From: a virus
UHGV virus genome: UHGV-0255022
Direction: 5' to 3' (one strand)
Length of the DNA stretch: 18,558 nucleotides
Shown: piece after piece, positions 12,991-14,060 of the stretch
Numbering within the stretch: the first letter of the stretch is position 1
Layout: each line of letters starts with the position of its first letter
Program-made: the position numbers and the translations under genes
The notes under the pieces: generated by a model
What the model was told of the DNA's origin: nothing
Database searches by the model: none
What the model saw: only the letters and a program-made list of their open reading frames with translations

Positions 12991-13018
12991 TGGGGAGGGC
13001 TTAGCCCTCCCTCTTTTT
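12991..13018. terminator. Bidirectional intrinsic terminator between the convergent adhesin and esterase genes
   Basis: GGGAGGGC-tta-GCCCTCCC hairpin (12993-13011) followed by tcttttt on the plus strand, and a T-rich stretch on the minus strand. Confidence 0.7.
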
Positions 13019-14060
13019 ACAGGTTAGCGTTTGGGTTTTGTTGTTGGGGAGCTGTTTTTATAGGCGCTCCCAGGTTTTTAGTAAACCACTCAACGACTCT
13101 GTTTATAATAATTGGCTGATACCATGTCTTATCGCCATGCTCGGCCCCTTCTACCAGCACGTACTCAGCGTTATCACCGTTCTTCTTCAACATCCTGAAT
13201 AGTTTGGCGCTTTGCTCAGGTGAAACCAGAGTGTCTTTGCTACCATGCATAATAAGAAATGGGGGTTTTACTCCTTTCATATGTCCGATTGGACTGGCGT
13301 TTAGCGCTTTTTCTTTTGACGCTGTGATGGGGGCTCCCGCAAAATTTCTGAATGCAGGGCCATTGATCATTAAGGCTTCGGTTACGGCAGGAGAGCGATG
13401 AACCTCCTGCACTGATTCAGGGAACCCCTCGCCAATATTCAACAAGTCAGAAATCCCATAAAGTGTGGCAACTGCCTGAACATCTGAGGATTGCTGAAGA
13501 AAGTCACCTTTATCAAAGGTTTTGTCACCATTTGTAGTTCCCATCATCTGGGCAAGCCATCCACCGGCAGAGTCACCCAGAACTCCGATTCTTTGAGGAT
13601 CAATCCCATAATTGCTGGCATGCTCTCTCAGGTAACGTATTGCAGCTTTTCCATCCTCAACTGGTGCTGGAAATGTATCAGGAATTGTTCTGTATTCTAC
13701 AGCGGCCACAACAAAACCAGCTTCTGCCAGAGCCATTCTCATTTCAATAAATTTGTCATGTTCAGAAGACATGAATCCGCCGCCGGGATAATAAATAATG
13801 GCTGGTTTTAAATCATTTGTTCGCGGGACAAGAACTGACATGTGAAGCTGTCTGACAGAACGAGTTCCTTTTATCTGGGAATAAACAACATCACCAATGA
13901 GATCGACCTGGTTTCTGGTCGGTGAAACACTAATGATATCTGCACCCGGGGTGTAACCAGGAAGATTAGTCTGGACAGGTGTTGCACAACTCCCGACCGA
14001 CATGGCCATTGACATACCATACAATAGTGTTGCAGATGATAATATCTTGTTAATTTTCAT
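13017..14060 (-). CDS. Secreted alpha/beta-hydrolase esterase/lipase, HSL-type (family IV), probable lipoprotein
   Basis: 347-aa ORF with a signal peptide and lipobox-like VGSC, an oxyanion-hole motif YPGGGF, the nucleophile elbow GDSAGG, and a C-terminal HGSKD...H region. Confidence 0.75.
   Translation of the reverse strand: MKINKILSSATLLYGMSMAMSVGSCATPVQTNLPGYTPGADIISVSPTRNQVDLIGDVVYSQIKGTRSVRQLHMSVLVPRTNDLKPAIIYYPGGGFMSSEHDKFIEMRMALAEAGFVVAAVEYRTIPDTFPAPVEDGKAAIRYLREHASNYGIDPQRIGVLGDSAGGWLAQMMGTTNGDKTFDKGDFLQQSSDVQAVATLYGISDLLNIGEGFPESVQEVHRSPAVTEALMINGPAFRNFAGAPITASKEKALNASPIGHMKGVKPPFLIMHGSKDTLVSPEQSAKLFRMLKKNGDNAEYVLVEGAEHGDKTWYQPIIINRVVEWFTKNLGAPIKTAPQQQNPNANL

What the first reader, a model, noticed from the sequence alone, without database searches (positions are those of the whole stretch)
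13017..14060. Prophage-encoded secreted HSL-type esterase lipoprotein
The ORF has a signal peptide with a lipobox-like VGSC, an oxyanion-hole motif YPGGGF and a nucleophile elbow GDSAGG, which together mark family IV (hormone-sensitive-lipase type) esterases. It is transcribed opposite to the phage operons and has its own terminator, which suggests lysogen-expressed cargo. Possible roles, all inferred, include deacetylation of surface polysaccharide or host-lipid hydrolysis.
Basis: partly seen in the sequence, partly recalled or inferred. Interest (0 to 1): 0.5.

Follow-up and report, generated by a model that had tools for sequence, protein, structure and literature searches.

The report
Prophage lipoprotein esterase, feruloyl-esterase family
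A lambda-like prophage of E. coli carries a self-standing gene for an exported, lipid-anchored serine esterase whose nearest relatives are plant-phenolic (feruloyl) esterases. It is a real but fairly ordinary piece of phage cargo whose substrate has never been tested.

Summary
The ORF is real and sits exactly where reported (13017-14060, minus strand, 347 aa), and all three motifs are present. It is an alpha/beta-hydrolase serine esterase. Ser164, Asp276 and His308 align residue for residue with the crystallographic triad of BD-FAE.

The best family is Pfam BD-FAE (PF20434, 154 bits), not the classic hormone-sensitive-lipase family IV. Pro replaces the His of HGGG, and NCBIfam HSL models score far below their cut-offs.

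The N-terminus is a canonical lipoprotein signal (Cys25, Ala at +2). The gene is antisense cargo between replication gene P and ninB. It occurs in 681 of 5,426 complete E. coli genomes and in isolated phages such as Perceval and 4A7. Published LF82 RNA-seq shows it transcribed in the lysogen while neighbouring nin genes are silent.

Substrate evidence:
- It is 63-66% identical to a Dickeya protein deposited as "Ferulate esterase".
- Its closest relatives (75-79%, also lipoproteins) lie directly after a phenolic-acid decarboxylase gene.
- The same gene pair recurs in 12 of 80 species.

Best reading: an envelope-anchored hydroxycinnamoyl (feruloyl/chlorogenate) esterase moron. The substrate is inferred, not shown. 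I rate it a new member of a known kind, of modest interest.

The parts
13017..14060 (-). Esterase coding sequence, 347 aa plus stop codon
   Evidence: ORF list. Pfam BD-FAE 5.7e-45 over residues 80-290. Annotated as 'alpha/beta hydrolase' WP_000700202.1.
13989..14060 (-). Signal peptide, residues 1-24: n-region MKINK and h-region ILSSATLLYGMSMAMSV
   Evidence: Read from the translation. AlphaFold pLDDT is below 50 for residues 1-26. Homologues have either a lipoprotein or a signal-peptidase-I type leader at this place.
13986..13997 (-). Lipobox V22-G23-S24-C25. Cys25 would be the lipidated first residue, and Ala26 at +2 predicts sorting to the outer membrane.
   Evidence: Fits the PROSITE PS00013/PS51257 lipoprotein rule (from memory). 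Cys25 is kept in all 44 IMG/VR copies and in the 75-79% relatives P0016-P0018 and the plasmid pSCU-105-1 protein. It is absent from the more distant homologues.
13773..13790 (-). Oxyanion-loop motif Y91-P-G-G-G-F96
   Evidence: P92, G93, G94, G95 and F96 are invariant in 92 homologues. The motif aligns with the oxyanion-loop region of BD-FAE and Lip_vut4.
13560..13577 (-). Nucleophile elbow G162-D-S-A-G-G167. The Ser164 codon is at 13569-13571.
   Evidence: Ser164 is invariant. It aligns with Ser128 of BD-FAE chain 6tkx, which is the catalytic serine in the crystal structure (PMC8165983).
13233..13235 (-). Catalytic Asp276, in HGSKD
   Evidence: Invariant. Aligns with Asp237 of BD-FAE.
13137..13139 (-). 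Catalytic His308, in GAEHGD
   Evidence: Invariant. Aligns with His269 of BD-FAE.
13020..13037 (-). C-terminal tail NPNANL. The ...A-x-L carboxyl end is conserved among proteobacterial homologues. Its role is unknown.
   Evidence: L347 is at least 90% conserved and A345 is common. The linker before it has low confidence in the model.
12992..13012 (.). GC-rich hairpin between the convergent inverse-autotransporter and esterase genes. It looks like a terminator for the plus strand and has only a weak U-tract for the esterase strand.
   Evidence: Terminator scan. It lies outside the block shared with phage Perceval, which starts at 13013. Perceval has a different hairpin at the same spot.
14061..14507 (-). 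Upstream intergenic region that travels with the esterase and must hold its promoter. It contains a ribosome-binding AAGG at 14071-14074 and one weak candidate extended -10 (TG-n-AATAAT) at 14185-14193.
   Evidence: The region is retained in all 44 IMG/VR loci whatever the other neighbour is. No consensus sigma-70 site was found on the minus strand. Only 8-of-12 candidates appeared in a relaxed scan. Independent transcription is shown by LF82 RNA-seq.
14447..14470 (+). Terminator-like site on the phage early-right strand just before ninB, at the position of lambda tR2. It marks the right edge of the cargo slot.
   Evidence: Terminator scan. The equivalent site is found in Perceval.

Best explanation
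The gene encodes a serine carboxyl-esterase of the BD-FAE / former CE10 branch of alpha/beta hydrolases. The Sec system exports it, and it is then lipid-modified at Cys25. With Ala at +2 it would be sorted to the outer membrane, so the catalytic domain sits in the cell envelope on a roughly 25-residue flexible tether.

Catalysis uses the Ser164-Asp276-His308 triad, with the PGGGF loop as the oxyanion hole. The most likely substrates are soluble hydroxycinnamoyl esters. Examples are feruloyl, p-coumaroyl or caffeoyl esters of sugars or quinate, such as feruloylated oligosaccharides or chlorogenic acid from dietary plant material. Some acetyl-ester activity is possible.

The gene is a phage 'moron'. 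It is a single-gene cassette with its own upstream region, set antisense to the early-right operon between gene P and ninB. It is expressed from the repressed prophage. It was probably captured from an enterobacterial LysR / phenolic-acid-decarboxylase / esterase operon, leaving the regulator and the decarboxylase behind.

Shown here: fold, family, triad, lipobox, genomic position, distribution, and transcription in a lysogen (published data). Inferred: lipidation, location, substrate class, and any benefit to the lysogen.
For: Family and catalysis:
- Pfam BD-FAE 153.9 bits across almost the whole model.
- PDB sequence hits are Lip_vut4 6nkf (1.6e-37), the GH43-CE protein 6mly, and BD-FAE 6xyc/6tkx.
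- The AlphaFold model has pLDDT 82.9 and pTM 0.82. Its top Foldseek matches are the same proteins (6nkf E = 1e-25, TM 0.83).
- Ser164, Asp276 and His308 map onto BD-FAE residues 128, 237 and 269. These are its crystallographic triad (PMC8165983).
- The three residues are invariant in 92 homologues.

Substrate class:
- It is 63-66% identical to Dickeya aquatica SLM61953 and 47% identical to SLM61950. Both are deposited as 'Ferulate esterase'. The depositors' paper lists FaeD and FaeT as the genus's ferulate esterases.
- FaeD is reported as a secreted feruloyl esterase (PMC9007343).
- The closest relatives (P0018, 75%; E. coli plasmid pSCU-105-1 protein, 76%) lie 13-17 nt after a phenolic-acid decarboxylase gene, with a divergent LysR gene.
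- The same decarboxylase-esterase pair occurs in 12 of 80 species loci. These include Serratia, Symbiopectobacterium, Mangrovibacter, Acinetobacter, Azospirillum, Aeromonas and Pedobacter.
- LysR and the decarboxylase are the only recurrent neighbours.

Lipoprotein: the lipobox fits the PROSITE rule, and Cys25 is kept in all 44 viral copies and in the 75-79% clade.

Moron status:
- The orientation is antisense and the G+C is low (0.41-0.46, against 0.50-0.55 for the phage backbone).
- The block 13013-15902 is shared with phage Perceval, while the other flank differs.
- Among 44 IMG/VR loci, 26 have the autotransporter neighbour, 14 have ybcK and 4 have emrE plus an outer-membrane protein. All 44 keep the upstream region and ninB.
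- The gene is present in 681 of 5,426 complete genomes and in 8 isolated phage records.
- In LF82 RNA-seq, LF82_159 has log2 fpkm 6.9-7.2 (B1) and 7.0-7.3 (macrophage, 1 h). Adjacent ninB has 2.7-3.1 and 4.1-4.6. Expression at 6 h in macrophages versus LB is log2FC 2.26, q = 2.7e-13.
Against: - No enzyme assay exists for this protein or its 75-80% relatives.
- I could not establish which Dickeya paralogue is the characterised FaeD and which is FaeT. The original paper could not be read.
- Only 15% of species loci have the decarboxylase neighbour. In Bacteroidota the neighbours are efflux genes, and there are no xylan-utilisation loci.
- BD-FAE itself also removes acetyl groups, and the closest solved structure is labelled a lipase. 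Specificity therefore cannot be read from family membership.
- E. coli lysogens generally lack the decarboxylase, and the window holds no remnant of it. The benefit of releasing phenolic acids is unclear.
- No consensus promoter was found.
- In LB the gene is only about 3.8-fold above the prophage background, and the LF82 authors did not list it as a moron.
- Lipidation and topology are predictions only.
Confidence: 0.6

Rival explanations
1. It is a broad-specificity short-chain acyl (acetyl) esterase with no preference for hydroxycinnamates. For example, it could deacetylate acetylated oligosaccharides (xylan, pectin, O-acetyl sugars) or small xenobiotic esters in the periplasm.
For: - BD-FAE is bifunctional and also releases acetate from xylan.
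- There are sub-threshold NCBIfam hits to acetyl esterase, pectin acetylesterase PaeX and acetylxylan esterase AxeA1.
- PDB relatives include acetyl-xylan and carbohydrate esterases and generic esterases.
- Most homologue loci have no informative neighbour.
Against: - The recurrent, tightly coupled phenolic-acid decarboxylase gene directly upstream, seen in several orders and in the closest relatives, points to a hydroxycinnamate product.
- The Dickeya relatives are labelled ferulate esterases.
- All the NCBIfam acetyl-esterase models score far below their cut-offs.
Confidence: 0.2
2. It is an envelope-modifying esterase that serves the prophage. It would remove O-acetyl or other ester groups from LPS, capsule, ECA or peptidoglycan, so as to block adsorption of competing phages or to alter immune recognition.
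For: - It is a lipoprotein located in the envelope.
- It lies in a phage cargo slot next to other surface-protein genes (inverse autotransporter, OmpX-like protein; Bor further on).
- It is induced in macrophages relative to LB.
Against: - It has no match to any PADLOC defence model.
- The family is about 60% identical across Proteobacteria, Bacteroidota and Lactobacillales, which have unrelated surface polymers. That argues for a common small-molecule substrate.
- Its closest relatives are in a catabolic or detoxification operon, not in surface-polysaccharide loci.
Confidence: 0.08
3. It is a lipase or phospholipase that acts on host or bacterial lipids, making it a virulence factor.
For: - The closest solved structure is named a lipase (Lip_vut4).
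- JGI names it 'acetyl esterase/lipase'.
- It is up-regulated in macrophages in LF82.
- It is common in human clinical isolates.
Against: - The 'lipase' labels are generic, and I found no substrate data for Lip_vut4.
- Homologues are concentrated in plant-associated and gut bacteria.
- The genomic links are to phenolic-acid metabolism.
- In the LF82 data it is as high in the B1 in-vitro sample as in macrophages.
Confidence: 0.07
4. It is a passenger gene with no current function in E. coli, simply hitch-hiking in a recombination-prone slot of lambdoid phages.
For: - The companion decarboxylase and regulator were left behind.
- Expression in LB is low.
- No promoter was recognised.
Against: - The ORF is intact, with catalytic and lipobox residues kept, in 43 of 44 viral copies. 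There are 635 genomes at 99% identity or more.
- It is retained with its upstream region across at least three different neighbour contexts.
- It is clearly transcribed in several conditions.
Confidence: 0.04

Closest known systems
Dickeya feruloyl esterases FaeD / FaeT (former CAZy family CE10)
   Same: - It belongs to the same protein family. It is 63-66% identical over the full length to D. aquatica SLM61953 and 47% identical to SLM61950. Both are deposited as 'Ferulate esterase'.
- It shares the PGGGF loop with its 63-66% homologue SLM61953 (the 47% paralogue SLM61950 has TGGGF), and the serine elbow, Asp and His with both.
- Both are exported proteins.
   Different: - The Dickeya proteins have ordinary signal peptides. 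FaeD is released by the Out type II secretion system. The phage protein has a lipobox and would stay anchored to the cell.
- The Dickeya genes are chromosomal and sit beside LysR regulators. This gene is a regulator-less phage cassette.
- I did not settle which paralogue is FaeD.
BD-FAE, the bifunctional feruloyl/acetyl-xylan esterase that founded Pfam PF20434 (PDB 6tkx, 6xyc)
   Same: - It is the best-scoring Pfam family.
- The triad positions correspond exactly.
- The fold is the same (Foldseek E about 1e-18).
   Different: - Sequence identity is only 24-25%.
- BD-FAE has YGSAWF where this protein has YPGGGF.
- BD-FAE comes from a Bacteroidota xylan utilisation locus. This subfamily is not found in such loci.
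Family IV / hormone-sensitive-lipase-type bacterial esterases (Pfam Abhydrolase_3; e.g. E. coli Aes, EST2, EstE1)
   Same: - It has the GDSAGG nucleophile elbow, a GGG oxyanion loop and a Ser-Asp-His triad.
- Abhydrolase_3 scores above threshold (81 bits).
- Structural matches have E of 1e-14 to 1e-16.
   Different: - The His of HGGG is an invariant Pro.
- NCBIfam HSL subfamily models and the Aes model score far below their cut-offs.
- The N-terminal part of the model is beta-strand, not a helical cap.
- BD-FAE scores much higher.
Enterobacterial LysR / phenolic-acid-decarboxylase / esterase operon (e.g. E. coli IncF plasmid pSCU-105-1; uncharacterised)
   Same: - These are the closest sequence relatives (75-79%).
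- They share the lipoprotein-type leader.
   Different: - The phage copy lacks the decarboxylase and the regulator. DNA similarity is confined to the mature coding part, 13017-13973.
- It has a different upstream region.
Lambdoid phage lipoprotein morons (Bor/Iss; Cor and Llp, from memory)
   Same: - It is a small independent cassette.
- It encodes an envelope lipoprotein expressed from the prophage.
- A Bor homologue is in the same window.
   Different: Those proteins are small and non-enzymatic, and act in serum resistance or receptor blocking. This one is a 36-kDa enzyme.

Membership tests
Pfam BD-FAE (PF20434) | Score above the gathering threshold, with near full-length coverage of the model | tested here: met
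   153.9 bits against a 26.8 cut-off. Residues 80-290 match model positions 7-214 of 215.
Pfam BD-FAE (PF20434) | Ser-Asp-His triad at the positions seen in the BD-FAE crystal structure | tested here: met
   S164, D276 and H308 align with residues 128, 237 and 269 of 6tkx. These equal Ser128, Asp237 and His269 in PMC8165983. The three residues are invariant in 92 homologues.
Pfam BD-FAE (PF20434) | Feruloyl and/or acetyl-xylan esterase activity | not testable with these tools
   This needs an enzyme assay. The only support is indirect: homology and gene neighbourhood.
Family IV / HSL-type esterases | HGGG oxyanion-hole motif | tested here: not met
   The sequence is Y-P-G-G-G-F. Pro92 is invariant in 92 homologues, and no His is present.
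Family IV / HSL-type esterases | GDSAG or GTSAG nucleophile elbow | tested here: met
   GDSAGG at residues 162-167.
Family IV / HSL-type esterases | Passes curated family models (Pfam Abhydrolase_3; NCBIfam HSL subfamilies) | tested here: inconclusive
   Abhydrolase_3 scores 81.3 bits, above its cut-off of 25 but well below BD-FAE. The NCBIfam GTSAG, GESAG and GCSAG HSL models score 54.6, 47.4 and 32.2 bits against cut-offs of 380-430, and LipP1 scores 78.8 against 350.
Family IV / HSL-type esterases | N-terminal helical cap domain | tested here: not met
   After the signal peptide and tether, the AlphaFold model has beta-strands at 52-64, 69-79 and 84-91, and only a 5-residue helix at 28-32. 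This rests on a model, not on a solved structure.
Dickeya FaeD/FaeT feruloyl esterases | Orthology-level sequence similarity to the characterised proteins | tested here: inconclusive
   It is 63-66% and 47% identical to the two D. aquatica proteins deposited as 'Ferulate esterase'. The D. dadantii 3937 sequences and the original paper could not be obtained.
Bacterial lipoproteins | Signal peptide with a basic n-region, a hydrophobic h-region and a lipobox ending in Cys at positions 15-35 | tested here: met
   K2 and K5, then a hydrophobic stretch at residues 6-22, then V-G-S-C25. This fits PROSITE PS00013/PS51257 as I recall it. Cys25 is conserved in all 44 phage copies and in the closest clade.
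Bacterial lipoproteins | Lgt/LspA/Lnt processing and acylation | not testable with these tools
   This needs a globomycin test or palmitate labelling.
Phage morons (lysogen-expressed cargo) | Not needed for the phage cycle, and variably present among otherwise related phages | tested here: met
   It is an esterase with no phage function. It occurs in 681 of 5,426 genomes. DLP12-type phages carry other genes in the same slot (from memory). The neighbouring cargo varies.
Phage morons (lysogen-expressed cargo) | Transcribed autonomously in the lysogen | tested here: met
   This rests on published LF82 RNA-seq for the 98.3%-identical Perceval copy. It shows 1,650/1,665 reads against 10/17 for the adjacent ninB in sample B1, and about 3.8-fold over the prophage median in LB. 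It was not measured for this window's host.
Phage morons (lysogen-expressed cargo) | Own promoter and terminator | tested here: inconclusive
   No consensus sigma-70 promoter lies on the minus strand in 14061-14507. A hairpin follows the stop codon but has a poor U-tract on this strand and is not part of the conserved cassette.

The most novel reading that the evidence does not exclude
The cassette is a phage-borne auxiliary metabolic gene for dietary plant polyphenols. By lysogeny it would give about one in eight E. coli strains, including ST131-type and AIEC LF82-type strains, a cell-surface or periplasmic hydroxycinnamoyl esterase. That enzyme would release caffeic or ferulic acid from chlorogenic acid or feruloylated fibre fragments in the gut. 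This could explain the strain-dependent chlorogenic-acid hydrolysis reported for colonic E. coli isolates (Couteau et al. 2001). The paper is cited in PMC4335975. That some of the isolates were E. coli is from my memory. The conversion of a secreted enzyme into a lipoprotein would keep the activity, and its products, with the lysogen.
Probability: 0.35. Interest if true: 0.55.

Novelty: new member of a known kind. Interest (0 to 1): 0.35.

Why it matters
If the inferred activity is right, a temperate phage spreads a plant-phenolic esterase among gut and extra-intestinal E. coli. Polyphenol-ester hydrolysis in E. coli would then be a lysogeny-dependent, strain-variable trait. That bears on the bioavailability of dietary hydroxycinnamates and on niche differences between E. 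coli lineages.

It also gives a simple, testable function for a gene that is annotated only as 'alpha/beta hydrolase'. The gene is found in about 12.5% of complete E. coli genomes and is transcribed by AIEC LF82 inside macrophages.

If the activity turns out to be a generic esterase, the finding is just one more uncharacterised moron.

Tried and rejected
- Single-sequence AlphaFold run: useless (pLDDT 34). I repeated it with a 92-sequence alignment.
- Model coordinates are not exposed to scripts, so triad distances could not be measured. I used the residue-by-residue alignment to BD-FAE instead.
- The afdb50 fold library was unavailable.
- I tried to read Hassan & Hugouvieux-Cotte-Pattat 2011 on FaeD/FaeT by a DOI and a PMC id recalled from memory. 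I also tried reference lists, the D. aquatica supplements and a term search. None worked, so which paralogue is FaeD stays open.
- Literature searches for any characterisation of this phage esterase, or for a phage feruloyl esterase in E. coli, found nothing specific. The E. coli MC3 paper only lists generic CAZy labels.
- No substrate data for Lip_vut4 were found.
- Rfam found no known RNA in the window.
- PADLOC found no defence-system match.
- I searched for a phenolic-acid decarboxylase remnant in the window and found none.
- I tested whether the inverse autotransporter and the esterase form a functional pair. I rejected this because the esterase occurs with at least three different neighbours, while its ninB-side flank is constant.
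- I looked for xylan utilisation loci around the Bacteroidota homologues and found none. Efflux genes are there instead.
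Full report
**1. The observation**

The window holds a single long ORF at 13017-14060 on the minus strand (ATG start, 347 aa).
- a leader MKINKILSSATLLYGMSMAMSVGS-C25;
- YPGGGF at residues 91-96;
- GDSAGG at residues 162-167.

The ORF is identical to RefSeq WP_000700202.1, annotated 'alpha/beta hydrolase', in E. coli SK1144. It belongs to a 90%-identity cluster of 1,454 sequences. It is clearly a gene: Pfam BD-FAE E = 5.7e-45, PHROG 3341 'esterase' E = 1.9e-129, and thousands of homologues.

**2. Surroundings**

[quoted passage not shown] In order it holds:
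- integrase (114-1256);
- exo/bet/gam;
- a CI-type repressor (5768-6523);
- a YdaT-domain protein at the cII position;
- O and P (7398-9115);
- a large inverse-autotransporter (IAT) adhesin gene (9365-12980);
- the esterase on the opposite strand;
- ninB, ninE, ybcO, rusA, Q, the lysis genes and a Bor-like lipoprotein.

In strain SK1144 the same prophage sits next to icd. The cargo segment 9000-14400 has G+C of 0.37-0.47, against 0.50-0.55 for the flanking phage genes.

Transcription from pR would cross the esterase gene in the antisense direction. A terminator-like site at 14447-14470 on the plus strand, just before ninB, occupies the place of lambda tR2.

**3. What the protein is**

*Sequence and fold.*
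- BD-FAE (PF20434) scores 153.9 bits over nearly its whole length. Abhydrolase_3 scores 81.3 bits.
- All NCBIfam models, including the HSL subfamilies and E. coli Aes, score far below their cut-offs.
- Among solved structures the best sequence matches are the goat-rumen enzyme Lip_vut4 (6nkf, 1.6e-37), the Bacteroides GH43-CE protein (6mly), and 6xyc/6tkx.
- 6xyc/6tkx are the BD-FAE enzyme. I infer this because the residue numbering fits the paper.
- A single-sequence AlphaFold run failed. A run with 92 homologues gave pLDDT 82.9 and pTM 0.82.
- Foldseek returned the same proteins first (6nkf E = 1e-25, TM 0.83), then classic HSL-type esterases at E of 1e-14 to 1e-16.

*Catalytic residues.* In the HMMER alignment to 6tkx, Ser164, Asp276 and His308 fall on residues 128, 237 and 269. 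The BD-FAE paper describes exactly these as the catalytic triad (PMC8165983). All three are invariant in 92 homologues, as are P92-G-G-G-F96.

*Relation to the HSL family.* The catalytic machinery is complete. However, the His of the family-IV HGGG motif is a conserved Pro. The model also shows beta-strands rather than a helical N-terminal cap. 'HSL-type' is therefore only a loose description. The BD-FAE / former CE10 branch is the better address.

**4. Export and anchoring**

The leader has two lysines, a 17-residue hydrophobic stretch, and V-G-S-C25. This fits the PROSITE lipoprotein pattern as I recall it. Ala at +2 predicts sorting to the outer membrane (established Lol rule, from memory).

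Cys25 is present in all 44 IMG/VR copies. It is also present in the closest relatives, P0016-P0018 and the pSCU-105-1 protein. The more distant homologues (Dickeya, Pantoea, Klebsiella, Rhizobium and others) have ordinary signal peptides. Lipid anchoring is therefore a derived trait of one small clade that includes the phage gene. Residues 26-50 are a low-complexity tether.

Lipidation and topology were not tested.

**5. Substrate: what the relatives say**

- **Unusual conservation.** The family is about 60% identical from Enterobacterales to Rhizobiales, Sphingomonas, Vibrio, Desulfovibrio, Campylobacter and Bacteroides/Prevotella, and 48% in Lactiplantibacillus. It is concentrated in plant-associated and gut bacteria.
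- **Dickeya relatives.** The two D. aquatica paralogues (63-66% and 47% identical) were both deposited as 'Ferulate esterase'. The genome paper from the same authors names FaeD and FaeT as the ferulate esterases of the genus. Reviews list both under CE10. FaeD is a known secreted feruloyl esterase.
- **Closest relatives.** The 75-79% relatives lie immediately downstream of a phenolic-acid decarboxylase gene (PF05870). A divergent LysR regulator accompanies them. This holds in four metagenomic contigs and on an E. coli IncF plasmid.
- **Recurrence.** The same decarboxylase-esterase pair appears in 12 of 80 species-representative loci, across several orders and in Pedobacter. In an all-against-all clustering of neighbours, LysR (16 loci) and the decarboxylase were the only families that recurred.

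[quoted passage not shown] An exported esterase encoded just after it is therefore most simply the enzyme that frees these acids from their esters.

The Bacteroidota homologues sit next to efflux genes rather than xylan utilisation loci. This fits small soluble esters better than polymeric xylan.

None of this is an assay. BD-FAE also cleaves acetyl esters, so specificity remains an inference.

**6. The cassette and its history**

*Boundaries.* Compared with phage Perceval of AIEC strain LF82 (98.3% identical protein), the shared DNA runs from 13013, four bases past the stop codon, to 15902. On the other side Perceval has a ybcK-type recombinase and emrE instead of the IAT.

*Neighbours across copies.* Among 44 IMG/VR contigs, 26 have the IAT, 14 have the ybcK junction, and 4 have emrE plus an OmpX-like gene. 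All 44 keep the 447-bp upstream region and ninB. The esterase is therefore an independent single-gene unit tied to the ninB side of a variable cargo slot. It is not a partner of the adhesin.

*Distribution.*
- In complete E. coli genomes the esterase is found in 681 of 5,426, with 635 at 99% identity or more.
- The IAT 3' end is found in 560.
- Eight records of isolated phages carry the gene (Lambda_4C10, 4A7, D2, 1W, 3W, Perceval, PhiR47_2).

*Origin.* DNA similarity to the plasmid and metagenomic operon is limited to the mature coding part (13017-13973). No decarboxylase remnant is present. This is consistent with capture of the esterase alone.

**7. Expression**

The LF82 transcriptome tables (PMC9928086 S1/S4) give these values for LF82_159 (PERCE_52):

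| Sample | Raw reads (two replicates) | log2(fpkm+5) |
|---|---|---|
| B1 | 1650 / 1665 | 6.9-7.2 |
| B6 | 266 / 258 | about 5.1 |
| LB, stationary | 27 / 15 | 4.1-4.4 |
| Macrophage, 1 h | 203 / 364 | 7.0-7.3 |
| Macrophage, 6 h | 145 / 191 | 6.1-6.3 |

The adjacent ninB has 10/17, 11/7, 0/0, 14/12 and 30/44 reads in the same samples. I infer that B1 and B6 are the in-vitro DMEM samples, from the S1 legend.

Macrophage 6 h versus LB is log2FC 2.26, q = 2.7e-13. In LB the gene is about 3.8-fold above the prophage median. That is below the authors' 5-fold cut-off, which is why it is not in their moron table.

So the gene is transcribed on its own from a repressed prophage and responds to conditions.

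I could not find a convincing promoter. No sigma-70 consensus lies on the minus strand. The only candidate is a weak extended -10 at 14185-14193.

The hairpin after the stop codon (12992-13012) has its T-run on the opposite strand and is not conserved in sequence. Yet Perceval has another hairpin in the same place. It probably stops the convergent transcript and, less efficiently, the esterase transcript.

**8. Mechanism proposed**

Steps 1-3 rest on sequence evidence and on published RNA-seq. Steps 4-5 are inferred.

1. In the lysogen the cassette is transcribed from its own upstream region.
2. The pre-protein is exported by Sec, acylated at Cys25 and sent to the outer membrane.
3. The tethered catalytic domain hydrolyses esters through Ser164, His308 and Asp276, with the PGGGF loop stabilising the oxyanion.
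4. The preferred substrates are hydroxycinnamoyl esters small enough to reach it.
5. The lysogen gains access to the alcohol moiety or changes its local phenolic chemistry. During lytic growth, antisense read-through from pR would damp expression.

**9. Comparison with known systems, and novelty**

It works like the Dickeya FaeD/FaeT and BD-FAE esterases, and it passes the BD-FAE family tests. It fails two defining features of family IV, so it should not be filed there.

What differs from the known enzymes:
- the lipoprotein leader;
- carriage as a phage moron;
- separation from the decarboxylase and its regulator.

Databases already call it 'alpha/beta hydrolase' or 'esterase'. I found no paper that studies it. 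It is a new, uncharacterised member of a known enzyme kind in a common type of phage cargo slot.

**10. Verdict**

The family label, the terminator claim and the suggested roles do not hold well.
- Interest is modest (0.35).
- The most novel reading still open is a phage-spread polyphenol-ester hydrolase that explains strain-variable chlorogenate hydrolysis in gut E. coli. I give it probability of about 0.35.

Noticed in passing
window 10745-10972 (within the inverse-autotransporter gene, 9365-12980): A 228-bp Big_1 repeat unit lies inverted relative to E. coli SK1144. It is 100% identical to the reverse complement of two repeat copies there. About 518 bp of the SK1144 gene are missing. This splits the adhesin gene into two ORFs, 9365-10906 and 11184-12980. 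None of 5,426 complete E. coli genomes shows this arrangement, so it is probably an assembly error in a repeat or a private rearrangement.
   Followed up: partly
window 9365-12980 (+): The prophage carries an inverse autotransporter (IAT_beta domain plus at least five Big_1/invasin repeats). The intact form in SK1144 is 1,302 aa. Its size matches none of the E. coli IATs named in Goh et al. 2019 (FdeC, YeeJ, IatA-D). Its 3' end is present in 560 of 5,426 genomes.
   Followed up: partly
window 13020-13037 (-), esterase residues 342-347: Proteobacterial homologues share a conserved extreme C-terminus (...[D/N]-P-[D/N]-A-x-L) after a variable, low-confidence linker. Matches to Bacteroidota homologues stop near residue 330. 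Its function is unknown; a sorting, docking or protease-recognition role is possible.
   Followed up: no
window 12992-13012 and L008 9022-9043: Two unrelated GC-rich hairpins occupy the same position, right after the esterase stop codon, in two different phage contexts. The T-run used by the opposite strand (CTTTTTACAG) is provided by the esterase stop region itself.
   Followed up: partly
window 14447-14470 (+): A terminator-like hairpin with a T-run lies just upstream of ninB, at the place of lambda tR2. It is conserved in Perceval.
   Followed up: no
window 6862-7401 (+): A protein with a YdaT_toxin domain (E = 9e-30) occupies the cII position, next to the repressor/cro region.
   Followed up: no
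window 18178-18519 (-): This is a Bor/Iss-type lipoprotein gene (Lambda_Bor, E = 6e-30). It is a second antisense lipoprotein cargo gene in the same prophage.
   Followed up: no
window 15902-17686: This segment does not align with SK1144 or Perceval. The window has a Phage_antiter_Q-type Q gene (15909-16598), whereas those phages have QuuD followed by an OmpC/NmpC-like porin. The late-regulation and lysis module is therefore mosaic.
   Followed up: no
L135 (E. coli plasmid pSCU-105-1, NZ_CP051739.1) 5498-7646: An IncF conjugative plasmid from a healthy human's E. coli carries LysR (interrupted by IS3), a phenolic-acid decarboxylase and a lipoprotein esterase 76% identical to the phage one. The full operon therefore also circulates in E. 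coli.
   Followed up: partly
L059 and L066 (Phocaeicola / Bacteroides), 5900-10950: Homologues about 60% identical are followed by genes for an outer-membrane efflux protein, a HlyD-type adaptor and a third large protein. This suggests a link between this esterase subfamily and the export of small toxic compounds.
   Followed up: no
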